DNA from: an uncultured virus (IMG/VR IMGVR_UViG_3300030110_004015)
Lineage: Duplodnaviria; Heunggongvirae; Uroviricota; Caudoviricetes; Crassvirales
DNA length: 64,000 bases
IMG/VR virus record: IMGVR_UViG_3300030110_004015
Reading direction: 5' to 3' (one strand)
Part shown: piece by piece, positions 1,901 to 60,012 of the stretch
Layout: each line of letters begins with the position of its first letter
Numbering within the stretch: position 1 is the stretch's first letter
Made by a program: the position numbers and the translations under genes
The notes under the pieces: model-generated
Told to the model about the DNA's origin: nothing
What the model saw: only the letters and a program-made list of their open reading frames with translations
Databases searched by the model: none

Positions 1901-1927
1901 AATTTGGTCTTTTGGTGTATATATATA

Positions 1928-1951: not shown

Positions 1952-1971
1952 CATTATTCACTTCGCTTAAC

Positions 1972-3167: not shown

Positions 3168-3173
3168 ATTTTT

Positions 3174-4422: not shown

Positions 4423-4523
4423 GCGTTATCTTTTATTAATTTTTCTAACAATTTAACAAGCTTTTGTACCGCTTTAGTTAAGTCGCTAATGTCTTTATAT
4501 AGTCGTTGTTCGTTCTTATTCAT
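4419..4523 (-). CDS. Small hypothetical protein (34 aa; likely start MNKNEQ)
   Basis: Overlaps the ligase stop and the next gene's start. Confidence 0.4.
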   Translation of the reverse strand: MNKNEQRLYKDISDLTKAVQKLVKLLEKLIKDNA

Positions 4524-5716: not shown

Positions 5717-5735
5717 TTGTTCGTATTTGTTTTGT
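5706..5735 (-). promoter_or_regulatory. Class I (early) promoter-like motif
   Basis: ACAAAACAAATACGA-N9-GATAAT. Confidence 0.6.
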
Positions 5736-6069: not shown

Positions 6070-6427
6070 CTTTTAATTTATTTATTTCTGTTATTAATCT
6101 ACCAAAACCTTGGTTTATACTATATATTAAAGTCTTCATTGCTTGTTCAGATCTTAACTCAACTGAAAAATTTTCAGTGTAATCATTATTTAACAAAGAC
6201 AATAATTGCTCTGGATTATTATAATCTCTACCAGGTATATAATAATTATCACCTTGAACTGTTGTTGGCCAGGTTGATAAACCTGTTAATCTTTGTATCT
6301 TTATCCAATCACTTTGATAGTCTTCGTTGTTTTTTTCTATAAACTTAATATCTTTACTATTAAAAAACTCTTTTAATTTCTTACAGTAACCACAAGTTTT
6401 TGATGTGTATATTGTTATTTCTTTCAT
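6047..6427 (-). CDS. Glutaredoxin-like protein
   Basis: IYTSKTCGYC active site and TWP cis-Pro motif. Confidence 0.85.
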   Translation of the reverse strand: MKEITIYTSKTCGYCKKLKEFFNSKDIKFIEKNNEDYQSDWIKIQRLTGLSTWPTTVQGDNYYIPGRDYNNPEQLLSLLNNDYTENFSVELRSEQAMKTLIYSINQGFGRLITEINKLKDEHKSTD

Positions 6428-45449: not shown

Positions 45450-47999
45450 ATGGTAGATATAAACGGTAATAAATTATTAAAACCTTCCCCACTGAAAATA
45501 GTAGGCTCTATTATAGGAGCTGGTGTAGGTATTTTTGGCGCTATAAAAGGTGCTAAAGATAAAAAGGCTGCAAGAAAAAAGATGGACGCGGCTCAAAAAG
45601 CTTTAGATAAAAACAAAAAAGATTACGCGGCTATCGATGTGTCTAATCCGTTTAAGGATACAAAGAACCATATGAAAGATATGAAAAACGTTTATGAGGG
45701 TGCTAAAAACGTTTATGCTGGTAAAATGGAAAATAAGTTTGAGGGCCAGAAGAATGCTTTTGAAGGAATGAAAAATAAATTTGAAGGCATGGAAAATGCT
45801 TTTGAAGATCTTACTGTTAACACACAACAAGCAGAGTTTGAAGCTCAACAAAACGCACAAAACCAAGCAAATATATTATCTAGTATGGCTGGAGCTGCAG
45901 GTGGTTCTGGTATAGCGGCATTAGCTCAATCAATGGCTAATCAAGGTGCTTTACAAGCGCAAAAAGCTTCTGCTAGTATTGGTGCTCAAGAAGCCGCTAA
46001 CGCTAAAAAAGCTGCAGAAGCATCTCAAGATATATCTATGAAAACCGCTGAAGAAGCTTCACAGCAACAAACAATGCAAGCTCAAGAACAATCAAGACTT
46101 GACACACAAAAGAATCAAGCTGATATGGATATACAAGCAACGGTTCTTGGTGCTGATGAAAAACTACAAGCCGCTAAACTAGACGAAGCATCTAAACTAC
46201 AAATGGCTGAAAGAGAGGGTGCTGAAAGAGCTGAAATAAGAAAAGGTGAAGGACAAATGTGGGAGGCTGAATCTAAAATGCGTAAAGAAGAAACACTTAT
46301 GTCTCAAAACATGCAAGAAATGAACATGCATCGTGAAGATAAAAACGCCGCTGATAAAGCTATGATGGAAGGTATTGGTGGAGCGGCTAAAGGTATTGGT
46401 GGTATAATAACTGGGTTAAGTGACAAAAGATTAAAAGAAAATATAAGTAAAATAAAATATTCTGATTCTGGTATACCTATTTATACATTTAAATATAAAG
46501 GAGACGATAGAACCTGGATTGGTACTATGGCTCAAGATTTAATTAGACTAGGTAAAGAATACGCTGTAACCAAGGGAGATGATGGTTACTATAGAGTTAA
46601 ATATAATTTAATAGATGTTAACATGGAAGAAATAAAACTACCTTCTCCGTTAAAACAACAAGATCCTGCTCAACAACAATCAGCTGATTTAAACAAAAGC
46701 ATGCAAGATGCTGGTATGGATATATTAGCTGCTGGTGCTGAAGAAAAAGCTTGGGAACAAAGACAGTTAGATATAAGAGCTATTGAGCCTTCTACAATGC
46801 AAGTAAGAAAAAGGCAAGATCAAGAGTTGCGTGAGGAGCAAAAGAAACTTGTAGATTCTGGTGGTGGTAACGAATTAGCACCACAATATATGGATGTTTT
46901 TTATTTAAGAATACAAAACCTTCAAGACGAAATGTATGATGCTTTAAAAAATGATGATAAAAAAGCTGAAAAAGATGTTATGCAAAAATTAGCAATGTTA
47001 GATCAATTACAGCAAATTATAAAAGAAGCTAAACAAGAGTTTTATGCAGATCATTTTGAAGGAGAAAGCCAATTATCAAAATCTGTTTCACAACAGCAAG
47101 TAAGTTTTGCCACGCAAATGTATTGTGAAAACCCTGAATTACGAATAGTATTTGCAGCACAAGGAGATGTTGACTCTGGTAGAAAAGATTATTATGGAGA
47201 TGTCGTTACCTTAGATACTATTTATGCTATAGTTCGTGATTTTGATTTTAATCCTACATTAATACCTATAACGAAAGGTAATAAAGATATGTATATTGTT
47301 GATAAGATGAAAGCTTTAGAATATCAAAACTTTAAAAAAGAACAATATGATTTAGCTACCAAGTCTAGAGAAAGTGGTAGTGAGGCTAAAATAAATTCAG
47401 GCGCAATAAATTATAAAATAGACATGCTATTTGGTCAAAACGACGGGACGGCATCTAAAGAACAAGATCAATTAGTATTAATGTTTGCTTGGGACGACGC
47501 TATACTTCAAGATGGTACTACGTTTAGAAGAGATTTGTATCAGCATCCAGATTTAACTACATTAAACTATGGTAGTTTAGACATGAAAATGCTAGATGCT
47601 AATGGTCAATTATTACCGCTTGGTGTAGAAGATATAAGTCATTGGGGTGATATGATATCTGAAGAAGATAAACTAAAAGTAGTTGACGCTATATTAAATC
47701 AAGATTCACCTTTTTTTGATATAACAATGCTAAGAACATTAATTAAAGAATATTATACATATAAAATAGAAAACGCTTGGTGGAAAGGTATGGGCTTTGA
47801 TGAAGGTAAATTACAAATGATGAGAATGAAAGCTGAAGAACTGGCTAAATCTAGATTTGAAATGGCTAAAGCAGAAGCTGCTGCTAAAGGAGAAAAGAAC
47901 TTCTTGTTTGACGGGGCGTTATATCCTTCAGGTGCTAAAGAAAAATCTATGGAAGAAAAATCAAAAGAAAACGATCAAGATACTAGTTTTGCAGTTTAA
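45450..47999 (+). CDS. Putative ejection/pilot protein with internal peptidase S74 domain
   Basis: Gly-rich hydrophobic N-terminus, Q/A-rich coiled coil, SDKRLKENI...GTMAQDL...DGYYRV, two SPLK motifs. Confidence 0.65.
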   Translation: MVDINGNKLLKPSPLKIVGSIIGAGVGIFGAIKGAKDKKAARKKMDAAQKALDKNKKDYAAIDVSNPFKDTKNHMKDMKNVYEGAKNVYAGKMENKFEGQKNAFEGMKNKFEGMENAFEDLTVNTQQAEFEAQQNAQNQANILSSMAGAAGGSGIAALAQSMANQGALQAQKASASIGAQEAANAKKAAEASQDISMKTAEEASQQQTMQAQEQSRLDTQKNQADMDIQATVLGADEKLQAAKLDEASKLQMAEREGAERAEIRKGEGQMWEAESKMRKEETLMSQNMQEMNMHREDKNAADKAMMEGIGGAAKGIGGIITGLSDKRLKENISKIKYSDSGIPIYTFKYKGDDRTWIGTMAQDLIRLGKEYAVTKGDDGYYRVKYNLIDVNMEEIKLPSPLKQQDPAQQQSADLNKSMQDAGMDILAAGAEEKAWEQRQLDIRAIEPSTMQVRKRQDQELREEQKKLVDSGGGNELAPQYMDVFYLRIQNLQDEMYDALKNDDKKAEKDVMQKLAMLDQLQQIIKEAKQEFYADHFEGESQLSKSVSQQQVSFATQMYCENPELRIVFAAQGDVDSGRKDYYGDVVTLDTIYAIVRDFDFNPTLIPITKGNKDMYIVDKMKALEYQNFKKEQYDLATKSRESGSEAKINSGAINYKIDMLFGQNDGTASKEQDQLVLMFAWDDAILQDGTTFRRDLYQHPDLTTLNYGSLDMKMLDANGQLLPLGVEDISHWGDMISEEDKLKVVDAILNQDSPFFDITMLRTLIKEYYTYKIENAWWKGMGFDEGKLQMMRMKAEELAKSRFEMAKAEAAAKGEKNFLFDGALYPSGAKEKSMEEKSKENDQDTSFAV

Positions 48000-48011: not shown

Positions 48012-51000
48012 ATGTCATTATTAAAAATATATAAAACAGAAGACGGAAAAGAACATAAAGTTGGCCCTACAAGCGAAGCAAGGTTTTTAGAAGAAAATCC
48101 TAGCGCACAGTTTGTTAGGGATGATTATATATTTACTAAAAGTGCTGATGTAAATGAATTCATGGTTAAACCTACGTTTGAGCTTGAAAACCCTTTAACA
48201 AAAATATTAGAAAATAAAAAAGTTAAAGAAAAAACTAGCAATAACCAGTTTGGATATGGTATACACGAAGTACAAAAAGGTACTGATCCAAGTGGAAATC
48301 CCATCATGGAAACAAAACAAGGATGGTTTAAACAAGAAGTAGAAGAGGAAGGTGTTGGTGTATTAAAAGAACCAAAAGTAAATTACACACATGTAGATAG
48401 AGACGATGTACCTAGTGATGTTATAGAAAAACATAACAACGGTGTTTTAGATACATATTTAAGTTCTATAAAAAACAATGAAGATCCTAGAGAAAACGGT
48501 GTAACCACAGAGATGATGATAGATGTTTTTCAACCGTCAAAGGAACAAAAAGTAAAAAATAACACAGAGGCAACAAAAAAAATAGATGAATATTTACAGA
48601 TAAAAAACACACCTAGACCAGAAGCCGATTTAGATACAAAAGAAATAATGTCGAAAAACATTCGCCCTATAGACCCAGGCGATGGAGGGGCTATCGTTGA
48701 TCACAGCTTGCATGAAAAAAATACTAGTTGGCATGCTAATCAAGAAAAAAATGAAAGATCTTACACCGGTAAAAAGATAAAAGAAGCTAGACAAATTTTA
48801 GAAAATAAAAAAAATAAAAATAAAGACTTTACATATACAGAAGATGATGTTCACGTACAGGCAATAGAACTAATGAATAGAGATATTGAAATAGAACACA
48901 TGAATAATGTTATCATAGAAGCTATAGAAAGATCTGATGAAGAAGATGGTACTTGGGGAGATATAGATAAAACAGATTTTCAAAAAGAACTATACGAAGA
49001 TATACAGGAGCATAAAAAAACACTAGCGAAAGTTGATAAAAACGGTGTGCCTGAATATATAATGAAACATAAAAGATCATTAGATACTACTGTAAAACTA
49101 ATTCAAAATAATGATACCTGGTTGTTAGAAAATGGAAATGAATTAAAAGCGTTTAACGAAAAATATGTTCCTAAGTTTAAAGAAATAGATGATCAATTAG
49201 AATCAGAAGAGTATAACGGTATAACAAATGTTTTTCAAACTTTACAAGGTATTAATAAAAAAATAGAAGCATATGTTGAGGATGGTTTAGATGAAAACTC
49301 TGATTCAGAAGATTTAAAAGCTTATAATGCTTTAGTTTCTGAGTATACTCAATTGTATAATCAAAATAAAGATAAATTAGAAAAATATAGGAATTTATAT
49401 GCTAGTAGAGAAAAATTAGTATTTGAATATACACAAGAAAAAGAAAGTAAATCTTTTGGTGAAACAGGGGATAAAACATTTCAACAAGCTGCAGAAGCAT
49501 ACAACACTGTACGAAATAAAAACAATTTATTAAGGCAAGGTTATAACAAACAACTTGTTCATACTAAGCATGATATTGAGAATAATGAAGGCGATATTAA
49601 CGATATACCTATCATAGAGTCTGCACTTAAAAGAAACAATCATAATGTCGCTTTATGGGGTGCTACGCTTCTTGATTGGGGTGTTACGGCTGCGTATTCA
49701 TTAGAACAGTTAGTAACAGATGCACCTATATATCTTAGTGAATTAGCTTTAAAAGAACTAGGTTACGACAAAGAGTTTAGTGAAATGAATGATATTGAAA
49801 AATTATTCGCAACTACTCATAAAATTTGGAAAGGACAAAGCGAGCAAAAAAGAAATGCTTATAATAGTTTTAGAGAAGAGTTACTCTCAAATGTTAAAGA
49901 ACCTCCTCAATGGGGTGATCAAGGTACAGATGAAGGTAATTGGGGAGAGTATATAGCTTATCAATTAGTTAATTTTGCTCCTCAAGCAGCTATGCTAGTA
50001 ACAATGCCGCAATCATCACTATCTATATTATCAAGCATGGCTGCTGGTCAAAAATATATAGAATTAAGTGATAAAAATAAAAGCGGTGCAGAATTAACTT
50101 CTTATCAAATACTAGGTTCTATGATGGCTGCTGCTGGGGCTGAGTATTATTCAGAAAAATACACACAAAAACTTATAAATAAAACGTGGGGAAACAAATC
50201 TAATGTTGTTGAGCGAGTTGGTTTTATAGATGGTTATAAAAGATTTATTAAAAATATGCCAGGAGCAGCGGCTGATAGAGTTGGTGAAGGAGGTAGTGAA
50301 GTATTAGCTACTATATTTGGAGATAATTTACCAGCTATAATGTTTCAAGGTGATAATACCGTTGGTGTTTTTGATAATGTAGATGAATCTTTTTTCAATG
50401 GTCTTGTTATGGCTGAGGCTATGAAAATACCTTCTACATTTAAACATGTTGTGACGCCATTTATGACGCCTAAAAACAAAGATCTTATAACATCAAAGAC
50501 AAAAGAATTAATGGATTTAGAGTTTCAATTACAAACTAATGAAACTATATCTGATGCGGCTAGAGAAGCTATTGAGAAAAAAATAGAAAAAATAACAAGC
50601 GAAGTTGGTGATATATTATACGAAACTATTGATAGAGTTGATGATATGACCAACAAAGAAAAGCGTGCTATAATGGACGCTACTAAAGAGGTTACAAAAG
50701 AAAAAGCTATAGCAGAAGATATAGCGCAAGATCAATCTATACCTATTGAAACTAGAAAAAAATTAATAAAAGAATCTCAAGACAGAATCAATTTATCTCA
50801 CAAAAAGAGAATTGATTTAATGAAAGACGTAAAAATAAGACAAGATTTAGAAGTTACTGAAGCTGCCGCTAAAAAAATAGGTACAAAAACAAATGTTGTA
50901 AACGATAGAGGTGATTTTGTAAGAAGATTTAAAAAGTCATATCCACAAAGTACAGAAACAAATCCTGGTTTACTAGACGCGTATTATGATCCGAATACAA

Positions 51001-54000
51001 ATGAAATGATCATAAATAAAACTAGAGCTAAAGAAATAGGTGCTGTTAGTGTTGGTTCGCATGAGTTGTTACATGCTATAATGAGAAACTCATTGAGAGA
51101 TAAAAAGAGCGGTAGAATGTCTCAAGAAGGTGAAGAGCTAGTAAATAACTTTTTAGGATCTTTATCTTCTCAAGAAAGAGCTATTATTGAAAAAAGAATA
51201 GAAGATAATTATAAATATGATAGTTACGAAGTTGGTGAAGACGGTGTTAGAAAAGGTGTTGGTGAGGCAAAGCCATTTGCTGAGTACGGTGAAGAATATT
51301 TAAATTCATACGTTGATGCTATAAGAAAAGGTGAGATAAGAACACCTGAATCTACATTTGAAAGGATGGGTGAAAAAATTGGTGATTGGTTTAAAACAAA
51401 AAAAGGTTTTGAAAATATAGAGTTTGAAGGTTTTGAAAGCGTGAGAGATTTTTTAAGAACATATACTTCTGAAGTAAAAGCTGGTGATGTAAGCCAAAGA
51501 ATATTAGATATTGCAGGGCCAATAACAAGAGAAAGAACGCCTAATTATAAAATGGCAGCTTCAAAAACATCACCAAACGCTTTTGAAAATGCTGAAGTTG
51601 TAAGTGATTTAGGTTTAAAAGGTGAAACAGCAAAAATAGTAGAAAGAAATAAAGCCATAGAAGAACGTATAATAAGAGAAGGTGAAACAGATGCTGATGG
51701 CAACGTGATGGCGTCTACTAGAATGCAACAAGAGCTTGCTCGTAATAATCTACCTAGAGCTTTTGCTTTAGCTAGACAAGCTGCTGGTAAAGGTAATGAT
51801 CTTACTCTTGAAGAAGGTTTAAAGATGAACGATGTTTCTGAGTGGTTTGGTGAATATAGTTTAAAACTTACTGAACTAGCTAGAACATATAGGCCTATAG
51901 TTAAAGATAAAGATGGCAACTTAAAAAGAATACCATTTGGTGCTTACATGAACTCTTTACTACCAAGAAAATATTCTGGTATATTAAATAGATTAAAAAG
52001 CAAAGTGCAAGCTTCTAGTATGGCGGAAGAAACTACCGCTAAAGAAGTTGGTAAACAAGCCGCTCCTACATATGAGCTTTCTAATAATGAGGTTGAAGGT
52101 AAAAAGGTAGCTTTAAATACTATAGGGCAAAACGAAGTGCAACAACAATTAGTAAATATAGTTAAAGGTATTCCTTTTCTTTCTAAACTTCGTAAATATA
52201 AAGAAGTTAAAAGCGAGTTAGTATCTCATAATAAAGCTAAGAAAAAATCAAATAGAAAACCAACTGGTAAATTGTATCCAGCACTAGAAGCTGTGTCAGC
52301 TATATTTGGTATAGATCCAATGAGAATAATAGAAGAAAAAGATCTAGACACAATGCAGAGAAAAGCTGCTCAAGACGCAATATTAAAAAATACTAACGAA
52401 ATAATATCTATGATGCCGTTTGGTACTACCGCTAGTGGTGATGCCACCGGTATAGCCAACACTAAGTTAGGAATATTTTACAAAAAAGGACAAAGAACAA
52501 AAATGAGTGCTACCGGTACTGGTAAAGGATTAGCAACGCAGGTAAAGCAAAATATAGACCCTAATAAATTTAGAGAATTAGTTGGTCTTGTAAAAGGTGG
52601 TCGTGTTAACAATACATCTGTTGATGGTGCTATTAGAGCTATAGTAGTACAAGTAGCAACTATAGCTTCTAATCAGGCTATAAGACAAACGTATGGTCCA
52701 GAAACACTACCATTAAAAGATGGTAAAGCTTCAGCTATGTATTCTAAAACATATTCAAAGGCTGATAGCGCTATACTTCAAGAGCTTGGTCAACTTAGTA
52801 GAATGATGAAAGAAGAGCAAGGACTATGGCCAGCTATAGTAAAAAGATTTGGCTACACGCCTGTAAATATGAAAAGCGAAGGTGGTAGATACGATATGGA
52901 AAACTGGGTATTTAGTAGTTTAACCCAATATTTACCATTGTCTTTTTTTCAACATAGCGGCACTTGGACAGGAACTTCGGCTGGAGCCTTAGAAGCTGAT
53001 GGTACGGAAATTAGATTACATAAAGGTAACTACTTATATAAAAACACAAAAGAATTAAACGAGGCTATAGACTACTATATACAAGACGGTAGAGCTTGGA
53101 AAGGAGAAACTATGTCAGAAAAAGACAAGCAAGACATAGCTAACGCTCTTAAAAGAGTTTCGTTAAACGAATCTAGTCTTGCGGACACTGAGTTTAAAGC
53201 TAGTAAAAAAAGAGGCTTTGAATTAATTTGGAAGCAACTAGACAAAATGGTAGAAGACAATCCTGATAATTTACCATATATTGCAGCAATGTTAAGTTCT
53301 GCTAGTGCTTACCAAGGTCATTTTATGAGAACTGGATCTGTAAACGAGTTTGCAAATTTAGAAGATGGAAAAACAGTAGAAGAGCATCAACAACCCGCAA
53401 GTGATTTAGCTAAGTTTTTATTTAATAGATTAGCTGAAAGAAGATTGTTTGGTAAAAATGGAACTTTTAAAAACGCTGTAAAAGGTTATCAACAAGGAAA
53501 ACTACTTGATGTTGATGATAAAAAACTTAAACTTGGAAAAGAGTGGAGTTATCAGTCAGATGCTGGTGAATATATGTATCCTATATTTATGGGTACAATG
53601 CCTATATGGGTTAGATACTTTAACCCAAATGTTAATAACAATAAAGGAGGTATAAATCCTAACGCGTATAAATTATCTAATGGAAATACTATAGCAGAAG
53701 AATTTGGTGTTGGCGTGAGCAAAAATCTACAAACACCTACTGTTATAGCTGAACAACAAGATTTATTATATAGAATATTTACAAACCAAGTAACACAAAA
53801 ACAAGCTACAAAAGCTATAAATAATTTTGCTAATCTTAAAATAAAAGAAAGTGTTGGTGATCAGGCTATACTAGACAATGCTATCGCTGCATCTAGGACA
53901 ACAGGAGATCCAAAGGGTATTACAGTGCTAGATTTTGATGACACATTAGCTACGACAAAATCTGGAGTTAGAGCTAGAATACCAAATCCTACTGGAGATC

Positions 54001-57000
54001 CTAAACCAAGAAGAAAAGTTATATTTTTAGCAGGTGGAGCTGGTAGTGGAAAATCAAACGTTGTAAGCAAATTAGGATTAGAAAATCAAGGGTTTAAAAT
54101 AGTAAATCAAGATATATCTTTAGAGTGGTTAAAAAAGAATAATGGTTTACCAGAAAATATGAACGATCTTACTAAAGAACAAAAAAGCACGTTAGGTTCT
54201 TTGCAACATCAAGCGAGAGGTATTGCTAAAAGAAAAATGATGAAATACCAAGGTCAAGGTGATGGCGTTGTTGTTGATGGTACAGGTGGATCACTAAGCG
54301 TTATGACAAAACTTGTTGAGCAATTTGAGGCTGATGGATATGATGTTAGTATGTTATTTGTAGGAACCTCTGTTGAAACCGCTTTAGAAAGAAATGCTAA
54401 TAGAAAAGAAAGATCTTTGTTAGATGTAATAGTTAGAAAAAACCACGAAGCTGTACAAGGTAATAAAAAAGGATTTAAATCAATATTTGGTAATAACTTC
54501 ATGGAAGTAAGCACTGATAAGTTATCGCAACAAGATCCTATGCCTAAAAATCTTGTTAACAAAATGAATGACTTTGTTAGTGGTTATGAAAAAAGAAGAT
54601 TAGATGCCGAGCAGTTTGCTTCTGAAGGAGCTGATATATTAGAACAGGGTGGTGAGTTTGATTTTTCAGAATTTAATATAGTTGTAGAAGGACAAACAGC
54701 ACCACTGTTTAATAAAGCAATGAAACTACAAAAAAAGTTTGGTAGTAAAGATATGTTTGTTTTAACAGCAAGACCATCAGAATCAGCACCACACATATAT
54801 GAATTTTTAAAAGCAAATGGTTTAAATATACCTTTGAAAAATATAACTGGACTTGCTAATTCTACACCTGAAGCAAAAGCTTTATGGATGGCTGGTAAAG
54901 TTGGTGAAGGTTATAATGATTTTTACTTTGCTGACGATGCTTTGCAAAATGTGCAAGCTGTGCAAAATATGTTAGATCAGTTTGATGTTAAATCAAAAGT
55001 GCAACAAGCTAAGGTTAACTTTAGTAAAACAATGAACGATTCATTTAATGATATACTACAAGATGTAACCGGTATTGAGTCTGAAAAAAGATTTGGAGCT
55101 ACTAAAGCTAGAAAACGTGGAGCGAGTAAAGGTAAGTTTAGATTTTTTATACCACCATCACACGAGGATTTTGTAGGCTTATTGTATAATTTTATGGGTA
55201 AAGGTGAGCAGGGTAATAAACATAGAGACTTTTTTGAAGAAGCTTTAGTTAGACCTTTAAATAGAGCAAATAGAGAATATGATACTGCAAGACAAACTAT
55301 TGCTAACGATTATAAAGCTTTAAATAAACAGTTTCCAAGTATTAAAAAGAAGTTTAATAAAAAAACACCAGATGGTGATTTTACTTTTCAAGATGCTATA
55401 AGAGTTTATTTATGGGACAAGCATGGTTATAGTATTCCAGGTTTAAGTAAACCAGATCAAGAGGCTTTGGTTAATATAGTAAGGTCTGACGCTGAATTAA
55501 AAACATATGCAGACGCTTTAAATATAATATCTAAAAGAAGCGATTACGTTAATCCTACAGAGGGTTGGGATTCTGGAGATATAAGAATGGATTTAGACGA
55601 TGCTACCGGTAGAGTTGGTAGAGCAGAATATTTTGCCGAGTTTAACGAAAACGCTGAAGTAATATTTTCTGAAGAAAATTTAAATAAAATAGAAGCTGCT
55701 TATGGTAAAAACGTTAGAAGTGCTTTAGAAGATATGCTTTATAGAATTAAAACTGGTAGAAATAGACCTAGTGGTCAAAATGCTATTGTAAATAGATTTA
55801 TGAACTATTTAAATGGATCTGTTGGTTCTGTTATGTTTTTTAATATGAGATCTGCTTTACTACAGCAAATGTCTATGGTTAACTATATAAACTTTGCTGA
55901 TAACAATATATTTGCAGCTGCCAAAGCTTTTGCTAATCAACCTCAATACTGGAAAGATTGGGCATTTATATTCAACTCTGATATGATTAAACAAAGAAGA
56001 GGTGGTATTAGAACAGATGTTAACGGTAATGAACTTGCTCAAGCTGTTAGTAGGTCAAGACACCCAATGAGAACTTTAGTTTCTAAATTATTAGAACTAG
56101 GTTTTTTACCAACACAAATTGGTGATAATATAGCTATTGCAACCGGTGGTGCTACATATTATAGAAATAGAATAAACAAGTATATAAAAGATGGTATGAG
56201 CAAAAAAGAAGCTGAAGCGGCGGCTTTTACTGATTTTCAAAATATAACTCAATCAACACAGCAGTCAGCTAGACCTGATATGGTTTCACAGCAGCAAGCC
56301 TCTCCACTTGGTAAGGTTATATTAAATTTTCAAAACGTAACATCACAGTTTAATAGATTAGGTAAAAAAGCTTTTCAAGATATATATAATAGAAGAATAA
56401 CACCTCCTAATAGTACGCAATTACAGAGTGATGTTTCTAATGCCTCTAGAATAGCTTATTACTTTGCAATACAAAACGCTATATTCTATAGTTTACAAAC
56501 AGCGTTGTTTGCCATGATGTTTGATGATGATGAAGAAGATGAAAGATTTTTAAAGAAAAAAGAGAGAATGATAAATGGTAGTATTGACTCTGTATTGAGA
56601 GGTACTGGTGTTATGGGTGCCGTTATATCTACGTTAAAAAATATGGCTATTAAATTTGCAGCGCAAAGAGATGTTAAGTATAATCCAGACGAAAGCTCTG
56701 TGTTAATGGAAATGTTAAATGTTTCTCCAGTTGTAGGTATTAAAGCTAGAAAAATAACTAATGCTGAAAAAACTCTTAACTATAATAAAAAAGTTATTAA
56801 CCACATGGGTGATTTTGATATTGACAACCCACAGTGGTCAGCAGTTACAAATTATGTTGAAGCGTTTACGAATGTTCCTGTTAACAGATTATATAATAAA
56901 ACACAAAACATTAGACAGGCTTTAAATAATCAAAATGAATCTTGGCAAAGAGCTTTAATGTTTTTAGGTTGGAGTCAGTATAATCTTGGTATTGAAAATG

Positions 57001-57341
57001 TTAAAATACAAGACGTTAAAGAAGAGATAAAAATAGAAAATAAAAAAGTTAAAGAACAAAAGAAAATTCAAAAGAAATTAGAAAAAGAAAAAGTTAACGA
57101 AGCGGTAGTTGAAGAAAACAAAAAGAAGAGCGAAAAAGATGGTATTTGTGCTGCTGTAACTAGAAGCGGTAAAAGATGTAAAACAAAAGTAGTTGAAGGA
57201 AAAACTTTTTGTACAGTACATGAAAAAGTAGAAAAAAGCGAAACTGGTGAGAAAAAACAATGTAAAAAAATAAAGTCAGACGGTAAGAGATGTAAAATGC
57301 AAACTAATTCAAAGTCAGGTTTGTGTTACTATCATGATTAA
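48012..57341 (+). CDS. Giant polyvalent (putative injected cargo) protein: zincin, sigma-r2-like, HAD with inserted P-loop kinase, C-terminal C3H zinc fingers
   Basis: HELLH; DFDDT/LTAR/FADD; GGAGSGKS, VVDGT; two C-x8-RC-x9-C-x2-H repeats. Confidence 0.75.
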   Translation: MSLLKIYKTEDGKEHKVGPTSEARFLEENPSAQFVRDDYIFTKSADVNEFMVKPTFELENPLTKILENKKVKEKTSNNQFGYGIHEVQKGTDPSGNPIMETKQGWFKQEVEEEGVGVLKEPKVNYTHVDRDDVPSDVIEKHNNGVLDTYLSSIKNNEDPRENGVTTEMMIDVFQPSKEQKVKNNTEATKKIDEYLQIKNTPRPEADLDTKEIMSKNIRPIDPGDGGAIVDHSLHEKNTSWHANQEKNERSYTGKKIKEARQILENKKNKNKDFTYTEDDVHVQAIELMNRDIEIEHMNNVIIEAIERSDEEDGTWGDIDKTDFQKELYEDIQEHKKTLAKVDKNGVPEYIMKHKRSLDTTVKLIQNNDTWLLENGNELKAFNEKYVPKFKEIDDQLESEEYNGITNVFQTLQGINKKIEAYVEDGLDENSDSEDLKAYNALVSEYTQLYNQNKDKLEKYRNLYASREKLVFEYTQEKESKSFGETGDKTFQQAAEAYNTVRNKNNLLRQGYNKQLVHTKHDIENNEGDINDIPIIESALKRNNHNVALWGATLLDWGVTAAYSLEQLVTDAPIYLSELALKELGYDKEFSEMNDIEKLFATTHKIWKGQSEQKRNAYNSFREELLSNVKEPPQWGDQGTDEGNWGEYIAYQLVNFAPQAAMLVTMPQSSLSILSSMAAGQKYIELSDKNKSGAELTSYQILGSMMAAAGAEYYSEKYTQKLINKTWGNKSNVVERVGFIDGYKRFIKNMPGAAADRVGEGGSEVLATIFGDNLPAIMFQGDNTVGVFDNVDESFFNGLVMAEAMKIPSTFKHVVTPFMTPKNKDLITSKTKELMDLEFQLQTNETISDAAREAIEKKIEKITSEVGDILYETIDRVDDMTNKEKRAIMDATKEVTKEKAIAEDIAQDQSIPIETRKKLIKESQDRINLSHKKRIDLMKDVKIRQDLEVTEAAAKKIGTKTNVVNDRGDFVRRFKKSYPQSTETNPGLLDAYYDPNTNEMIINKTRAKEIGAVSVGSHELLHAIMRNSLRDKKSGRMSQEGEELVNNFLGSLSSQERAIIEKRIEDNYKYDSYEVGEDGVRKGVGEAKPFAEYGEEYLNSYVDAIRKGEIRTPESTFERMGEKIGDWFKTKKGFENIEFEGFESVRDFLRTYTSEVKAGDVSQRILDIAGPITRERTPNYKMAASKTSPNAFENAEVVSDLGLKGETAKIVERNKAIEERIIREGETDADGNVMASTRMQQELARNNLPRAFALARQAAGKGNDLTLEEGLKMNDVSEWFGEYSLKLTELARTYRPIVKDKDGNLKRIPFGAYMNSLLPRKYSGILNRLKSKVQASSMAEETTAKEVGKQAAPTYELSNNEVEGKKVALNTIGQNEVQQQLVNIVKGIPFLSKLRKYKEVKSELVSHNKAKKKSNRKPTGKLYPALEAVSAIFGIDPMRIIEEKDLDTMQRKAAQDAILKNTNEIISMMPFGTTASGDATGIANTKLGIFYKKGQRTKMSATGTGKGLATQVKQNIDPNKFRELVGLVKGGRVNNTSVDGAIRAIVVQVATIASNQAIRQTYGPETLPLKDGKASAMYSKTYSKADSAILQELGQLSRMMKEEQGLWPAIVKRFGYTPVNMKSEGGRYDMENWVFSSLTQYLPLSFFQHSGTWTGTSAGALEADGTEIRLHKGNYLYKNTKELNEAIDYYIQDGRAWKGETMSEKDKQDIANALKRVSLNESSLADTEFKASKKRGFELIWKQLDKMVEDNPDNLPYIAAMLSSASAYQGHFMRTGSVNEFANLEDGKTVEEHQQPASDLAKFLFNRLAERRLFGKNGTFKNAVKGYQQGKLLDVDDKKLKLGKEWSYQSDAGEYMYPIFMGTMPIWVRYFNPNVNNNKGGINPNAYKLSNGNTIAEEFGVGVSKNLQTPTVIAEQQDLLYRIFTNQVTQKQATKAINNFANLKIKESVGDQAILDNAIAASRTTGDPKGITVLDFDDTLATTKSGVRARIPNPTGDPKPRRKVIFLAGGAGSGKSNVVSKLGLENQGFKIVNQDISLEWLKKNNGLPENMNDLTKEQKSTLGSLQHQARGIAKRKMMKYQGQGDGVVVDGTGGSLSVMTKLVEQFEADGYDVSMLFVGTSVETALERNANRKERSLLDVIVRKNHEAVQGNKKGFKSIFGNNFMEVSTDKLSQQDPMPKNLVNKMNDFVSGYEKRRLDAEQFASEGADILEQGGEFDFSEFNIVVEGQTAPLFNKAMKLQKKFGSKDMFVLTARPSESAPHIYEFLKANGLNIPLKNITGLANSTPEAKALWMAGKVGEGYNDFYFADDALQNVQAVQNMLDQFDVKSKVQQAKVNFSKTMNDSFNDILQDVTGIESEKRFGATKARKRGASKGKFRFFIPPSHEDFVGLLYNFMGKGEQGNKHRDFFEEALVRPLNRANREYDTARQTIANDYKALNKQFPSIKKKFNKKTPDGDFTFQDAIRVYLWDKHGYSIPGLSKPDQEALVNIVRSDAELKTYADALNIISKRSDYVNPTEGWDSGDIRMDLDDATGRVGRAEYFAEFNENAEVIFSEENLNKIEAAYGKNVRSALEDMLYRIKTGRNRPSGQNAIVNRFMNYLNGSVGSVMFFNMRSALLQQMSMVNYINFADNNIFAAAKAFANQPQYWKDWAFIFNSDMIKQRRGGIRTDVNGNELAQAVSRSRHPMRTLVSKLLELGFLPTQIGDNIAIATGGATYYRNRINKYIKDGMSKKEAEAAAFTDFQNITQSTQQSARPDMVSQQQASPLGKVILNFQNVTSQFNRLGKKAFQDIYNRRITPPNSTQLQSDVSNASRIAYYFAIQNAIFYSLQTALFAMMFDDDEEDERFLKKKERMINGSIDSVLRGTGVMGAVISTLKNMAIKFAAQRDVKYNPDESSVLMEMLNVSPVVGIKARKITNAEKTLNYNKKVINHMGDFDIDNPQWSAVTNYVEAFTNVPVNRLYNKTQNIRQALNNQNESWQRALMFLGWSQYNLGIENVKIQDVKEEIKIENKKVKEQKKIQKKLEKEKVNEAVVEENKKKSEKDGICAAVTRSGKRCKTKVVEGKTFCTVHEKVEKSETGEKKQCKKIKSDGKRCKMQTNSKSGLCYYHD

Positions 57342-57362
57342 AAAACAAAGAAAACAAGTGAT
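57339..57362 (+). promoter_or_regulatory. Class II promoter-like motif
   Basis: TAAAAA-N12-AGTGAT before ATG 57373. Confidence 0.45.
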
Positions 57363-57372
57363 TTACAGATAT

Positions 57373-58455
57373 ATGAAGAAATTAATAATTTTACTAATGG
57401 TAATTGTTACTTCTTGTGCTGCTCCAAAAAAATGTTGCTCACAAGATTTGCAAAAACTTTTAAAGTTTTCTACGTTTTATGCTGCTGTAAACGGTGGTAC
57501 TTCCTTGTCTGATATAAAAGTGTTTTCTGTTGACAATGGTTTATCAACACAAACTATTTCAACTCCTTATGATTACAACTTTACAATAGGTTTACGTAAG
57601 ATAGCAAGGTTTGGCTATGAAAATAAAGCACAAACATTTTATGATGGCACGGAATCTAATTACAGTGATGCGGCTACTGTCGGTAAAGTTAAAGGAGTTG
57701 AATACTTATTTGAAGTAGATTACAAAAGGCAAGAGGGTATTGACTATATGGATCAACATCATTTTGTACGTTGGAGTTCTGATGATGGTTGTCCTAGTGG
57801 TTTGTGTGTTAATTACTTTGCTTTAAAAGTAGAATATTTACAAGACGGTTTTGCTGATGTAGAGTATTTCGAAGCATCAGAAAGATACAGACATCGTAAA
57901 GGTAAAAATTTATCTTGGAATATAGGGGCTGTTCATAGGTTATCAGAACCATATGGTTATGATCCGTTGGACGAGTGGATGTTATCAAACGGTAATTTAC
58001 ACTATACTTATCTAGCAATTCAAGAAGGATATACTGTGAACGTTGCTAATAGTGAATACTTTGATCCTAACGGAGTTTTAGTTGCAACTAGTCCTGAAGT
58101 ATGGGAAGCAGTTGTAATTCCAGAGGTGTTATCAGATTATGTTACAAAAAAACGTAATGAATTAGATAGATTAATACAGCACTCAATAGTTATTGGCTTT
58201 GATTACTATAAATATACAAAGAAAAACTGGTTACACGTTTGGGGTAACTTTATGCCTTGGCATTATAACGATGGTAGTGAATTTTCATATCACAATTTTA
58301 TAGAAGATGATCAGTGGTACGATTATTCGGGTGGGCTAATATACGGAATAAAACAAAATAAAAACTTAGGTTATTTTGTAGAAGGAAAATATAATAAGTA
58401 CTGGAATCGTGAGTGGTACGATTTTAAAATAGGATTAAATTACACAATTTTTTAA
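57373..58455 (+). CDS. Putative outer-membrane beta-barrel protein (start MKKLIILL)
   Basis: Signal peptide, aromatic amphipathic strands, terminal KIGLNYTIF with final Phe. Confidence 0.65.
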   Translation: MKKLIILLMVIVTSCAAPKKCCSQDLQKLLKFSTFYAAVNGGTSLSDIKVFSVDNGLSTQTISTPYDYNFTIGLRKIARFGYENKAQTFYDGTESNYSDAATVGKVKGVEYLFEVDYKRQEGIDYMDQHHFVRWSSDDGCPSGLCVNYFALKVEYLQDGFADVEYFEASERYRHRKGKNLSWNIGAVHRLSEPYGYDPLDEWMLSNGNLHYTYLAIQEGYTVNVANSEYFDPNGVLVATSPEVWEAVVIPEVLSDYVTKKRNELDRLIQHSIVIGFDYYKYTKKNWLHVWGNFMPWHYNDGSEFSYHNFIEDDQWYDYSGGLIYGIKQNKNLGYFVEGKYNKYWNREWYDFKIGLNYTIF

Positions 58456-58456
58456 A

Positions 58457-58738
58457 ATGGCAAAAGAATTAAATGAAGATACGGGTTTCGTATTAAGTAT
58501 AAAAACAATGATAGGTTTAGGTTTTGCAATAGCAACTTTAATAGGTATGTGGTTTACGCTTCAAGCAGATATTGCTGAAGCTAAAGAGTTGCCATCTCCA
58601 CCAGATCCAGAAGTAACTCGTATGGAGTTTGATATGAAAGATCAAATGATTCGTAACACGATTATGGAAACAAAAAAAGATGTTGAGGAAATTAAAGAAA
58701 CTCTAGATAAAATAGAAGATAAATTATATAACAGATAA
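58457..58738 (+). CDS. Small single-pass membrane protein with coiled coil
   Basis: TM segment MIGLGFAIATLIGMWFTL. Confidence 0.6.
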   Translation: MAKELNEDTGFVLSIKTMIGLGFAIATLIGMWFTLQADIAEAKELPSPPDPEVTRMEFDMKDQMIRNTIMETKKDVEEIKETLDKIEDKLYNR

Positions 58739-58743
58739 ATTAA

Positions 58744-59097
58744 ATGGAAAGACAAGATATGTCAAAGGTGTTGTATGTGTTGTTAATGATATTAGTATTT
58801 ATGGCATCACAAGCACTTGCACAAATAGAAGTAAAACATTTTAATGCTGGATGGAATAACGTTAACAGCGTTAAATGGTTTATGGATTTAGAAGATTGTA
58901 AAACCAAAGGAACGACAGATATAGCTAAAAATCCAAAAATAGCTAAAAAATATAAAATAGCAGTTGTGCCTACTATTATTATATTTAAAGACGGAGAAGA
59001 GGTTGCTAGGTTTCAAGCAGATTTATCATTTAAAATGGTAGCAACTAGAGAAGAAGTACAAGAAGAAATAGATAATCAATTAATGAGCGATTTTTAA
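58744..59097 (+). CDS. Exported thioredoxin-fold protein lacking CxxC
   Basis: Signal peptide; FNAGWN in place of WCxxC; KYKIAVVPTIIIFKDGEEVARF. Confidence 0.7.
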   Translation: MERQDMSKVLYVLLMILVFMASQALAQIEVKHFNAGWNNVNSVKWFMDLEDCKTKGTTDIAKNPKIAKKYKIAVVPTIIIFKDGEEVARFQADLSFKMVATREEVQEEIDNQLMSDF

Positions 59098-59098
59098 T

Positions 59099-59497
59099 AT
59101 GGGATATGTAATGAAAGGTTTTGGTGGGTTTGGTAACTCACCAGCTAAGAAAAAAGGACCTTGTTGGAAAGGTTATGAAATGGTAGGTATGAAAAAGAAA
59201 GGTAGTAGAACGGTTCCTAACTGTGTTCCTTCACCTGCTAAAAACAGTAATGAACCTAGAAAAACAACTAAAGGGCCTGGTAGAAATTTTAGGACTACAG
59301 AAGAAGGAGCGGGTATGACTGCAAAAGGTGTTGCTGCATACAAAAGAAAAAACCCTGGTAGTAAATTACAAACAGCTGTAACTGGTGATGTAAAACCTGG
59401 TAGTAAAGCAGCTGGTAGAAGAAAATCGTTTTGTGCTAGATCAAAAGGTTGGACTGGCGAAAGAGGTAAAGCCGCAAGAGCAAGATGGAAGTGTTAA
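59099..59497 (+). CDS. Basic SPxK-module protein
   Basis: MGYVMKGFGGFGNSPAK; PCWKGY...VPNCVP; SPAK; RRKSFCARS. Confidence 0.65.
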   Translation: MGYVMKGFGGFGNSPAKKKGPCWKGYEMVGMKKKGSRTVPNCVPSPAKNSNEPRKTTKGPGRNFRTTEEGAGMTAKGVAAYKRKNPGSKLQTAVTGDVKPGSKAAGRRKSFCARSKGWTGERGKAARARWKC

Positions 59498-60012
59498 AAG
59501 GTTTTCCTATAAAAAAATATTTAGATAAAAAACCACCTAGTAACAACTCATTTACTACTATGCAAGAGTTAAAGGAGTTAAACAAGGTGCCTATGAATAA
59601 AAAATTTGTAAGACAAAAAGATGATGTTGAAAAATGTTTTAGCTCTATAGTTGATGATAAGCCTCTTATAAGACAATTAATGGACGAAACAGTTCCTATT
59701 ATAACAAAAATAAAACATCATCACAAAAGACCTAGACCTAAAAAACTTGCAAAAAAATACGGTATGAATATGAAAGACATTGAGATGCCATCAATGAAAA
59801 CACCTTCATACCCATCAGGACACTCTGCTCAAGGTGTATTAGTTGGCATGGCTTTAAGTAAAAAATTTCCAAGCAAAAAGAAACAACTAATGAGTATGGC
59901 AAAAGATATTTCTAAAAGTAGAAACGTTGCGCATGCACATTATAAATCTGATTCTGTTCTTGGTGAAAAAATAGGCAAAGACATGTATAATTATATAAAA
60001 GATAAACTATGA
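59485..60012 (+). CDS. PAP2-superfamily phosphatase
   Basis: K....RPRP, PSYPSGHS, SR....AHY.SD. Confidence 0.85.
   Translation: MEVLKGFPIKKYLDKKPPSNNSFTTMQELKELNKVPMNKKFVRQKDDVEKCFSSIVDDKPLIRQLMDETVPIITKIKHHHKRPRPKKLAKKYGMNMKDIEMPSMKTPSYPSGHSAQGVLVGMALSKKFPSKKKQLMSMAKDISKSRNVAHAHYKSDSVLGEKIGKDMYNYIKDKL

What the first reader, a model, noticed from the sequence alone, without database searches (positions are those of the whole stretch)
48012..57341. 3109-aa protein looks like a self-processing polyprotein with [AYF]S[KR] boundary motifs
Seen: a zincin HELLH at 51060-51074. Short motifs MAASK (51552-51566), MYSKTYSK (~52737-52760), AASR (53886-53897) and NFSK (55017-55028) fall at apparent module edges. 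The HAD domain starts just after AASR and ends just before NFSK. Known: large polyvalent proteins of phages and plasmids combine zincins with diverse effector domains. Inference: the embedded protease cleaves at these motifs to release several effectors at or after injection.
Basis: partly seen in the sequence, partly recalled or inferred. Interest (0 to 1): 0.8.

Follow-up and report, generated by a model that had tools for sequence, protein, structure and literature searches.

The report
Phage giant protein with junction motifs
A 3109-residue protein of a marine flavobacterial phage is built from modules joined by a short conserved motif that looks like a set of cutting sites read by a metalloprotease embedded in the same protein, although cutting itself has not been shown.

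Summary
It lies in the structural module of a podophage related to Flavobacterium and Cellulophaga phages.

Across relatives the motif is sharper than [AYF]S[KR]. It is [VI]-x-[FYM]-S-[KR], or S-E in a minority:
- FSK/FSR occur in 107 distinct contexts, about 2.1 times background.
- 232 of 947 homology break clusters sit on it, against 17 of 947 random positions.
- It is enriched only between the zincin and the conserved C-terminal core: 365 seen, 75 expected.
- The window's other virion ORFs lack it.

Most proteins use one dialect (K/R or E) at their junctions. The pre-HAD and pre-core junctions agree in 78 of 78 classifiable proteins. The dialect follows the zincin tree, not the core or HAD trees.

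The zincin keeps invariant H, E, H and E in 163 sequences. Its model weakly resembles anthrax lethal factor and Pro-Pro endopeptidases.

The reading is partly supported: one common reader is well supported, while cleavage and the zincin as cutter are inferred. Zincin self-processing of polyvalent proteins was proposed in 2017; the junction motif and its dialects appear new.

The parts
48012..57341 (+). Giant ORF, 3109 aa (P0001)
   Evidence: More than 2282 relatives at E<=0.001 among the 7996 candidates scored.
48012..50759 (+). N-terminal region, aa 1-916. No family assigned. The junction motif is not enriched here.
   Evidence: Pfam gives only sub-threshold hits. FS[KR] is seen 25 times against 27.8 expected upstream of the zincin in 136 proteins. 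aa 644-888 is 24% identical to the 3694-aa 'structural protein' of Flavobacterium elemo phages.
50760..51527 (+). Zincin metalloprotease domain, aa 917-1172 (HELLH at 51060-51074; invariant E1095 at 51294-51296)
   Evidence: H1017, E1018, H1021 and E1095 are invariant in 163 sequences. The AF2 model has pLDDT 81 and pTM 0.78 and is folded over residues 1-255. The top six VIA rows are all lethal-factor-type folds: the LF catalytic domain (Z 5.5, rmsd 5.1, 168 aligned), PPEP-2 (Z 5.2, 142), Certhrax, the LF N-terminal domain twice, and PPEP-3 (Z 4.9). BFVD hits include the elemo structural protein, large polyvalent proteins and MuF-C.
51528..51644 (+). Junction 1: linker aa 1173-1211 holding MAASK (51552-51566)
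   Evidence: Model residues 257-295 have pLDDT below 50. A family x-S-K column lies 3-4 residues away.
51561..52739 (+). Module X, aa 1184-1576 (X1 1184-1345, X2 1346-1576); function unknown
   Evidence: No Pfam or NCBIfam hit. X2 ends in the family motif KDGKSxxMFSK. The sigma70_r2 likeness of X1 is an unsupported lead.
52737..52760 (+). Junction 2: tandem motif MYSK-TYSK, aa 1576-1583
   Evidence: Aligned to family MFS[KE]; homology with relatives ends here. Tandem copies also occur in relatives.
52761..53885 (+). Module Y, aa 1584-1958; function unknown
   Evidence: No Pfam or NCBIfam hit.
53886..53897 (+). Junction 3: AASR, aa 1959-1962, just before the HAD
   Evidence: Aligned to family A-I-x-F-S-R...PKGI. 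In relatives this junction is often a double motif, FSKxxxFSR.
53898..55016 (+). HAD phosphatase, aa 1963-2335, with a P-loop kinase (about aa 1998-2136; nt 54003-54419) nested at the cap position
   Evidence: DFDDT at aa 1974-1978. Motifs II-IV are invariant in A2. Kinase: AAA_33 and Zeta_toxin score above their cut-offs. HAD Pfam hits are below cut-off (DUF2608 in 11 of 11 members, best E 5e-5). The kinase region is covered in about 43 of 120 homologues.
55017..55028 (+). Junction 4: NFSK, aa 2336-2339, between the HAD and the core
   Evidence: At this column, of 148 proteins: 106 FSK, 7 FSR, 9 FSE, 9 FSN, 3 FSQ, 3 LSK, 2 YSM, one each of FSM, YSK, LSV and LST, and 5 with no motif found. The motif is kept when the upstream module is a different one.
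55029..57011 (+). Conserved all-alpha core, aa 2340-3000; no known family
   Evidence: Covered in 115-120 of 120 listed homologues, at 38-81% identity in loci. No Pfam, PDB-sequence or fold match. AF2 model pLDDT 69, all helices. No match in 50,697 cultured-phage records.
57012..57338 (+). K/E-rich linker and two Cys/His zinc-ribbon-like motifs, aa 3001-3109
   Evidence: DUF5763 (E 1.5e-4) and zf-primase (E 1.9e-5), both below their cut-offs.

Best explanation
This is a giant polyvalent protein of a flavobacterial podophage, probably carried in the virion. It consists of an N-terminal region plus a lethal-factor-like zincin, then four cargo modules: X, Y, a HAD phosphatase with a nested P-loop kinase, and a highly conserved all-alpha core with zinc ribbons.

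Shown here:
- The modules are joined by a short motif, [VI]-x-[FYM]-S-[K/R, or E in some lineages].
- The motif is confined to the stretch downstream of the zincin.
- Most proteins use one dialect at their junctions, and that dialect follows the zincin's lineage.

Inferred:
- The motifs are endoproteolytic processing sites.
- The embedded zincin reads and cuts them, in cis or between copies.
- In this protein that would give pieces of about 1183, 395, 380, 375 and 770 residues.
- The pieces are released in the capsid or after ejection into the host.

The scissile bond is unknown. A hydrophobic residue just after the cut, that is cleavage before F/Y/M, would suit a zincin (recalled knowledge, not tested).
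For: 1. Motif at junctions. In this protein three sites align with family FS[KR] motifs and the fourth lies within about 4 residues of one. FSK and FSR occur in 107 distinct sequence contexts. Their clusters-per-expected ratios are 0.96 and 1.01, against a background of 0.455 +/- 0.113 over 150 control tripeptides.

2. Module edges. 12.8% of 20,346 homology end points lie 0-4 residues from the motif, against 1.0% for random positions and 0.4-2.3% for seven control tripeptides. 232 of 947 break clusters sit on a motif, against 17 of 947 random positions.

3. Zone restriction in 136 proteins. FS[KR] counts are 365 against 75 expected between the zincin and the core, 25 against 27.8 upstream of the zincin, and 44 against 37 in the core.

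4. The window's other structural ORFs, including the capsid-region genes and the 3574-aa protein, lack the motif. Serine codons differ between the sites (TCA, TCT, AGT), so the signal is at the protein level.

5. One reader. E-type proteins use FSE at nearly all junctions: P0003 has 0 K-type and 8 E-type sites, P0043 0 and 6, P0051 1 and 6. The pre-HAD and pre-core junctions are 73 K/K, 5 E/E and 0 discordant. HAD cassettes that are 77-88% identical carry K-type flanks in one protein and E-type flanks in another.

6. Link to the zincin. The dialect needs 4 changes on the zincin tree (shuffled mean 8.7; 0 of 500 shuffles reach 4 or fewer). It needs 8 on the core tree (97 of 500). On the HAD tree it needs 4 for 5 E-type taxa (45 of 500), where the zincin tree for the same taxa needs 3 (3 of 500).

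7. The zincin is nearly universal and looks active. 116 of 120 homologues have at least one HExxH, and 3 of the other 4 have HDxxH. H, E, H and E1095 are invariant in the 163 sequences that carry exactly one HExxH. The model is confident, and junction 1 follows it in a stretch with pLDDT below 50.

8. The top six VIA fold matches are lethal-factor-type folds, among them the site-specific endopeptidases LF and PPEP.

9. No prohead protease was recognised in the Pfam and PHROG scans of the window's ORFs.
Against: - No cleavage product has been observed, and no cultured phage carries this family.
- The zincin lies next to the motif-bearing zone, so shared descent of zincin plus middle region could produce part of the tree signal. 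Only 9 E-type proteins, in about 4 zincin lineages, were available.
- No single zincin or core column explains the K/E switch.
- Concordance is not perfect. The end-of-X2 junction disagrees with the pre-core junction in 3 of 56 classifiable proteins, and mixed proteins exist, such as P0015 (4 K-type, 4 E-type) and P0004.
- Three E-type proteins have HDxxH in place of HExxH. That may mean a weakened or dead protease in proteins that still keep the motifs.
- In the core model, FSK (model residues 18-20) sits inside a predicted helix (residues 10-34) at pLDDT about 57, not in an obvious loop.
- This protein's own copies are partly degenerate: A replaces F/Y/M at two sites.
- The fold match of the zincin is middling (Z 5.5 or less), and profile searches of PDB sequences found nothing.
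- Phage N4 virion RNA polymerase also carries such a peptidase domain but is packaged unprocessed, as stated in PMC5512222 (passages read).
Confidence: 0.45

Rival explanations
1. The motifs are processing sites, but another protease cuts them: an unrecognised phage protease (for example a head-maturation enzyme) or a host enzyme. The zincin would have a different job, such as attacking the cell wall or a host protein during entry.
For: HDxxH zincin variants still keep E-type motifs. No zincin column explains the dialect. For phi24B gp47 the authors propose that the metallopeptidase acts on peptidoglycan (passages read). The pattern of a hydrophobic residue, any residue, then F/Y/M/A before Ser resembles assemblin-type sites (V/L-x-A|S); this is recalled, not tested.
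Against: The motif is absent from the other virion proteins of the window. No prohead protease was found by Pfam or PHROG. The dialect follows the zincin tree. The motif occurs only downstream of the zincin.
Confidence: 0.15
2. The motif is not cut. It is a conserved connector that every module boundary needs for a common non-proteolytic partner or structure, for example docking to the portal or capsid interior, a chaperone handle, or a helix cap. The K/E dialect would then match that partner.
For: In the core model FSK lies in a helix. A common reader is shown but proteolysis is not. N4 vRNAP is packaged whole. A third position that can be K/R or E is unusual for a protease subsite.
Against: A protease domain with an intact active site is nearly universal and lies directly upstream of the motif zone. 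Tandem duplicated motifs with short spacers occur. Junction 1 is predicted to be disordered. No partner gene was identified.
Confidence: 0.25
3. The motifs are relics of gene fusion, or internal translation starts: former protein N-termini of the type M-x-S-K.
For: M is enriched 5.3-fold just before FS[KR], in 13 of 107 contexts. MAASK and MYSK in this protein begin with M.
Against: Most contexts lack M, and V/I-K/Q-F-S-K predominates. At X2 the motif belongs to the upstream module, because homology ends after it. The concerted K/E switching is not expected of relics. The shorter database proteins start at scattered internal Met residues, as fragments of short contigs would, and the one short ORF in a long locus (L028) is a frameshift inside the HAD.
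Confidence: 0.05

Closest known systems
Large polyvalent proteins of phages and conjugative elements with zincin-like metallopeptidase (Iyer, Burroughs, Anand, de Souza, Aravind 2017, PMC5512222; abstract and passages read)
   Same: A giant phage protein that joins unrelated enzymatic domains to a HExxH peptidase, in a structural-gene setting. Those authors proposed autoproteolytic release of the domains. Viral fold matches of this zincin include proteins named 'large polyvalent protein associated domain' and MuF-C.
   Different: No LPD Pfam domain is detected here. In the passages found, that paper defines no cleavage motif: 'cleavage site' occurs only in a reference title and 'linker' not at all. 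The 660-aa core has no described family.
Anthrax lethal factor and Pro-Pro endopeptidases (peptidase family M34; the family number is recalled)
   Same: HExxH plus a downstream Glu. The best fold matches cover most of the domain (1yqy_A Z 5.5, 168 aligned; 6fpc_A Z 5.2, 142 aligned; 9g0j_A Z 4.9). Both are sequence-specific endopeptidases acting on extended peptides (recalled).
   Different: The Z values are middling, and there is no sequence-profile match to PDB chains. The spacing from HExxH to the invariant Glu is 74 residues here, longer than I recall for that family. Here the enzyme is embedded in its presumed substrate.
Polyproteins of RNA viruses and retroviruses with an embedded protease and short junction motifs (recalled)
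   Same: Short conserved motifs at domain junctions, an embedded protease, tandem sites with small spacers, and site dialect that varies with protease lineage.
   Different: This is a tailed dsDNA phage with a metalloprotease. Processing is not demonstrated. Only part of the protein, downstream of the protease, carries sites.
phi24B gp47 and Flavobacterium elemo-phage giant 'structural protein'
   Same: Proteins of about 2800-3700 aa with a metallopeptidase. gp47 was found in virions by proteomics (bioRxiv 10.64898/2026.04.10.717836, passages read). The elemo protein occupies the same gene position, has a HEIFH, and its zincin is a fold relative (prob 0.99, E 0.04).
   Different: The other modules differ. 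The elemo protein has three FS[KR], none in the [VI]-x-F-S-[KR] context. gp47 was not reported as processed in the passages read.
Phage T4 polynucleotide kinase-phosphatase (recalled)
   Same: A P-loop kinase and a DxDxT HAD phosphatase in one polypeptide of a phage.
   Different: Here the kinase is nested inside the HAD at the cap position and is present in only about a third of relatives. No sequence similarity was tested, and the substrate is unknown.

Membership tests
Polyvalent proteins (Iyer et al. 2017) | Several unrelated catalytic or binding domains in one phage-encoded polypeptide | tested here: met
   Zincin, P-loop kinase, HAD motifs and zinc-ribbon-like tail in one ORF of a phage structural module.
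Polyvalent proteins (Iyer et al. 2017) | Zincin-like metallopeptidase domain | tested here: met
   HExxH plus an invariant Glu in 163 sequences. Confident fold model whose best matches are LF and PPEP zincins.
Polyvalent proteins (Iyer et al. 2017) | LPD (large polyvalent protein-associated) Pfam domains | tested here: not met
   No LPD family at E<=0.1 for the whole protein, at E<=5 for the eight segments, or at E<=10 among the first 25 of 46 families listed for the 51 core sequences. LPD38 and LPD39 appear only as weak ESM-Atlas neighbours.
Polyvalent proteins (Iyer et al. 2017) | Delivered with the DNA (packaged in the virion) | not testable with these tools
   Inferred from the gene's position among virion genes and from annotated relatives.
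Peptidase family M34 (lethal factor / PPEP) | HExxH with a downstream Glu as third zinc ligand | tested here: inconclusive
Peptidase family M34 (lethal factor / PPEP) | Shared fold or sequence similarity | tested here: inconclusive
   VIA Z 5.5, 5.2 and 4.9 over 142-168 residues, with the top six rows all lethal-factor-type folds. Foldseek E is 0.3 or worse. Profile against PDB sequences finds nothing relevant.
HAD phosphatase superfamily | Motif I DxDxT, motif II S/T, motif III K, motif IV DD | tested here: met
   DFDDT at aa 1974-1978. VLTARP, a conserved K and FADDA are invariant in alignment A2.
HAD phosphatase superfamily | Pfam model above its curated cut-off | tested here: not met
   For the first member scanned: DUF2608 20.9 bits (cut-off 22.6), HAD 14.3 (27), Acid_phosphat_B 16.2 (27). 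DUF2608 matches 11 of 11 members, best E 5e-5.
P-loop kinase (AAA_33 / Zeta_toxin-like) | Pfam model above its curated cut-off | tested here: met
   AAA_33 40.6 bits (cut-off 27) and Zeta_toxin 37.9 (22.3), at aa 1998-2136.
Self-processing viral polyprotein | Conserved short motif at domain junctions | tested here: met
Self-processing viral polyprotein | Site motif co-varies with the embedded protease | tested here: inconclusive
   The dialect clusters on the zincin tree and not on the core or HAD trees. The sample is 9 E-type proteins, linkage is a possible confound, and no determinant residue was found.
Self-processing viral polyprotein | Cleavage at the motifs that depends on the protease | not testable with these tools
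   Needs proteomics or expression with and without an active-site mutant.
Targets of a head-maturation (prohead) protease | The same site motif in capsid, scaffold or other internal proteins, and a prohead protease gene | tested here: not met
   32 other ORFs of the window were scanned for [FYM]S[KR]. The scaffold-position and capsid-region ORFs have none, and the 3574-aa protein has one. No protease family was found in the Pfam and PHROG scans.

The most novel reading that the evidence does not exclude
A tailed dsDNA phage uses a true polyprotein strategy. An embedded lethal-factor-like zincin cuts a giant virion protein at [VI]-x-F-S-[K/R] junctions. Protease lineages and their sites have co-evolved into at least two incompatible dialects (K/R and E), which lets cargo cassettes be swapped between phages as long as their flanking sites are re-tuned. 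The released cargo would include a nested kinase-phosphatase and a widespread, still unnamed 660-residue all-alpha core.
Probability: 0.35. Interest if true: 0.8.

Novelty: new variant of a known kind. Interest (0 to 1): 0.68.

Why it matters
Self-processing of giant phage 'polyvalent' proteins by their embedded zincins has been a prediction since 2017, without a defined site. A concrete junction motif makes that prediction directly testable with peptides, point mutants and mass spectrometry. The motif comes in two mutually exclusive dialects that follow the protease lineage.

It would also allow the cargo boundaries of thousands of uncultured marine phage proteins to be read from sequence. 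This family has at least 2282 members in the first search and 1472 cluster representatives for the zincin. None is found in 50,697 cultured phage records.

The work also flags two undescribed building blocks. One is a HAD phosphatase with a nested P-loop kinase. The other is a very conserved all-alpha core with no Pfam, PDB or fold match.

Tried and rejected
- Complex prediction of the zincin (A3 residues 1-256) with the HAD/core junction peptide (A1 residues 1-45) gave no verdict, score 0.00. It carries no weight either way.
- A charge-swap partner for the K/E position was sought in the zincin and core alignments. No clean column was found.
- Natural split forms were sought. The shorter database proteins start at scattered internal Met residues and look like contig fragments. 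L028's 879-aa ORF is a frameshift inside the HAD cap, not a split at a motif.
- The sigma-factor likeness of module X1 was tested.
  - For it: 25 of 30 named ESM-Atlas hits are Sigma70_r2 at score 0.93 with few shared features, and BLASTP against the phage's own sigma gives E 0.62 aligned on region 2.
  - Against it: the X1 profile finds no sigma factor in the PDB, and PF04542 is not found in the giant gene of L013 or L007.
  - It is left as an unsupported lead.
- Identity of the core was sought by Pfam on the segment and on 51 members, an A1 profile against PDB sequences, Foldseek against the PDB and VIA wide. Nothing beyond short helical hairpins came up. The model has 691 residues, so single domains may have been missed.
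- Zincin profile against PDB sequences and Foldseek against the PDB found nothing significant.
- PHROGs gave 0 families for the whole protein.
- Cultured phages: megablast of the gene and tblastn of core aa 2201-3000 found no match.
- A viral-contig scan with the zincin alone confirmed no relative.
- A DNA-level repeat at the motifs was rejected because the serine codons differ.
- The generic K/E label shuffle over all [FYM]S[KRE] sites gives only a modest signal. Mixedness is 91 against a shuffled mean of 109.1 and minimum of 97. Six proteins have at least 3 E-type and at most 1 K-type site, against a shuffled mean of 1.19 and maximum of 6. Chance non-junction hits dilute this test.
- The top 150 hits of the zincin profile search added few new E-type proteins.
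- Earlier-findings look-ups returned nothing.
- No whole genome is held for this window.
Full report
**Observation**

The window is phage DNA of about 32% G+C. Its long + strand block encodes terminase (phrog_6681), portal (phrog_6547) and several 'virion structural protein' families. The terminase is 46% identical to those of Flavobacterium elemo phages and also matches Cellulophaga, Tenacibaculum and Maribacter phages; all 87 matching records cover at least 80% of the query.

ORF 48012-57341 is open and gives 3109 aa. [AYF]S[KR] occurs 9 times against 3.9 expected, and 27 of 2000 shuffles reach 9. Within this one protein the excess is therefore mild.

**Anatomy**

Pfam recognises only a P-loop kinase above cut-off (AAA_33 and Zeta_toxin, aa 1998-2136). 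PHROGs gives nothing.

The kinase sits inside a HAD phosphatase. Motif I, DFDDT, is at aa 1974-1978, and motifs II-IV lie after the kinase. Relatives without the kinase have a roughly 50-residue cap in its place. HAD Pfam models score just below their cut-offs.

The C-terminal 100 residues hold two Cys/His ribbon motifs.

Aa 2340-3000 is the family's core:
- It is covered in 115-120 of the 120 listed homologues.
- It is 38-81% identical in 55 IMG/VR loci.
- It has no Pfam, PDB-sequence or fold match.
- Its AF2 model is all-helical, with pLDDT 69.
- tblastn finds it in none of 50,697 cultured-phage records.

**The zincin**

Of 120 homologues, 76 align over HELLH, 40 more have a HExxH elsewhere at the corresponding place (39 with one and one with two), and 4 have none. 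Three of those four are full-length and have HDxxH at that place.

In a MAFFT alignment of the 163 sequences that carry exactly one HExxH, H1017, E1018, H1021 and E1095 are invariant.

The AF2 model of aa 917-1211 (50-row alignment) has pLDDT 81 and pTM 0.78. It is folded over model residues 1-255. Residues 257-295, which include MAASK, are below pLDDT 50.

Structure and profile comparisons gave the following:
- Foldseek against the PDB gives nothing better than E 0.3, though lethal factor recurs among the weak rows.
- The six best rows of VIA-align against 48,161 chains are the lethal factor catalytic domain (Z 5.5, rmsd 5.1, 168 aligned), PPEP-2 (Z 5.2, 142), Certhrax, the LF N-terminal domain twice, and PPEP-3 (Z 4.9). 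These Z values are middling.
- They agree with the lethal-factor link reported for polyvalent-protein peptidases in PMC5512222 (passages read).
- Against viral predicted structures, hits include the elemo 'structural protein' (prob 0.99), proteins named large polyvalent protein-associated, and MuF-C.
- A profile of the zincin finds 1472 cluster representatives at E<=0.001 among 1.84 billion.

**The motif in the family**

Aligned columns show KDGKSxxMFS[KE] at site 1577, A-I-x-F-S-R...PKGI at 1960 and KVQQAKVKFSK at 2337. At 1183 there is a nearby [FM]SK followed by the conserved start of module X.

Long relatives carry 7-12 copies, typically [IV]-[QK]-F-S-[KR].

Counting contexts that differ by more than 60%, FSK and FSR reach 0.96 and 1.01 clusters per expected occurrence. 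The background over 150 control tripeptides is 0.455 +/- 0.113, with a maximum of 0.93. MSK, YSK and FSE are also raised, while ASK and ASR are not.

The 107 distinct FS[KR] contexts prefer V/I at position -2, M/K/Q at -1 and S/T at +1. They include tandem pairs such as FSKSVNFSR.

**Junction test**

In an all-against-all BLAST of 175 family proteins, 12.8% of 20,346 homology end points lie 0-4 residues after the motif start, against 1.0% for random positions. Homology start points are enriched 3-5 fold just upstream.

Seven control tripeptides give 0.4-2.3%. 232 of 947 break clusters sit on a motif, against 17 of 947 random positions. About three quarters of break clusters are therefore not at a motif.

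**Zone restriction**

In 136 proteins:

| Zone | FS[KR] seen | Expected |
|---|---|---|
| N-terminus to zincin | 25 | 27.8 |
| Zincin to core start | 365 | 75.1 |
| Core to C-terminus | 44 | 37.2 |

[VI]xFS[KR] between the zincin and the core is 194 against 9.4 expected. These counts include homologous sites.

The window's other ORFs, including the 3574-aa virion protein and the capsid-region genes, show no enrichment.

**Two dialects**

Nine of 108 labelled proteins use [FYM]-S-E at their junctions in place of S-K/R. Examples are P0003 (0 K-type, 8 E-type), P0043 (0, 6), P0051 (1, 6), L023 (1, 5) and P0028 (0, 4). These counts include one conserved FSEF inside the HAD, which is not a junction.

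The third residue at the pre-core and pre-HAD junctions is K/K in 73 proteins, E/E in 5, and never discordant.

The end-of-X2 junction is looser. Against the pre-core junction, 53 of 56 classifiable proteins agree and 3 do not. Mixed proteins exist (P0004, P0015).

HAD regions that are 77-88% identical carry E-type flanks in P0028, P0017 and P0035 and K-type flanks in P0020, P0021, P0048 and P0022.

The serine codons differ among this protein's sites, so the signal is at the protein level.

**Which module does the dialect follow?**

| Tree | Parsimony changes | Shuffled labels |
|---|---|---|
| Zincin | 4 | mean 8.7, minimum 6; 0 of 500 at or below 4 |
| Core | 8 | 97 of 500 at or below 8 |
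| HAD C-terminal half (78 taxa, 5 E-type; 4 E-type proteins dropped by my anchors) | 4 | 45 of 500 at or below 4 |
| Zincin, same 78 taxa | 3 | 3 of 500 at or below 3 |

The three HDxxH proteins are all E-type.

No single zincin or core column accounts for the switch.

**Interpretation**

It is shown that a short protein-level motif marks module junctions, that it is limited to the zone after the zincin, and that it is kept uniform within most proteins. This argues for one reader.

- an intact, nearly universal active site;
- its position directly upstream of the motif zone;
- the disordered junction right after it;
- its likeness to site-specific endopeptidases;
- the tree association;
- the lack of the motif in other virion proteins and of any recognisable prohead protease.

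Points against this reading:
- No cleavage data exist.
- Linkage of the zincin to the middle region is a possible confound.
- The E-type sample is small.
- Some proteins have HDxxH in place of HExxH.
- FSK is predicted to be helical at the core junction.
- This protein's own sites are partly degenerate.
- N4 vRNAP offers a precedent for packaging without processing.

**Comparison with what is known and novelty**

Zincin-mediated self-processing of polyvalent proteins is a published hypothesis (PMC5512222; abstract and passages read). In the passages found for 'cleavage site' and 'linker', that paper defines no site motif.

Two full-text searches for processing of such phage proteins and one on Cellulophaga phage virions listed no paper that describes this motif. 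I read passages of only three of the listed papers.

I therefore rate this as a new variant of a known kind.

Noticed in passing
window 32398-43122 (+): A second giant ORF of 3574 aa (phrog_14478, virion structural protein) lies upstream of the studied gene. It has no Pfam hit and only one FSK.
   Followed up: partly
window 1972-2733 (-); L057, L058: The phage encodes its own sigma-70-like protein (Sigma70_r2 27.7 bits, r4 21.9 bits). Two related viral contigs carry a similar gene of about 250 aa.
   Followed up: partly
window 51561-52046 (+), aa 1184-1345: Module X1 looks sigma70 region 2-like by eye, by ESM-Atlas features (25 of 30 named hits) and in a non-significant BLASTP alignment to the phage sigma. 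A profile search of the PDB and a PF04542 scan did not support it.
   Followed up: yes
window 53898-55016 (+): A P-loop kinase is nested in the cap position of a HAD phosphatase. This unusual arrangement recalls polynucleotide kinase-phosphatases. The kinase region is covered in about 43 of 120 relatives.
   Followed up: partly
window 57334-60012 (+): Downstream genes: a 373-aa ORF that overlaps the giant gene's end by 8 nt (no family), a thioredoxin-like ORF (58744-59097), DUF6321 (59099-59497) and a PAP2 phosphatase (59485-60012).
   Followed up: no
window 14562-16124 (+) and 643-6427 (-): A GroEL-like chaperonin (Cpn60_TCP1, E 6e-49). On the other strand: an ERF recombinase, a PDDEXK nuclease, an ATP-dependent ligase, an NT5C nucleotidase, a pyrimidine-dimer glycosylase and a glutaredoxin.
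   Followed up: no
window 45450-47999 (+): A tail-fibre-like ORF with a Peptidase_S74 intramolecular chaperone domain. This was the only other peptidase-type Pfam hit among the ORFs scanned.
   Followed up: no
proteins P0017, P0035, P0051 (zincin motif): Three full-length relatives have HDxxH in place of HExxH, and all three use the E-type junction motif. This is a possible functional link between the active site and the site dialect.
   Followed up: partly
L028:9300-9660: A frameshift inside the HAD cap splits the giant gene into ORFs of 1800 and 879 aa in one viral contig. Its close relative L029 is intact, so this is probably an assembly error.
   Followed up: yes
L001:12462-23546 (NC_055852.1): Flavobacterium phage elemoA has a 3694-aa 'structural protein' in the same gene position. 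It has its own HEIFH zincin but no clear FS[KR] junction pattern.
   Followed up: partly
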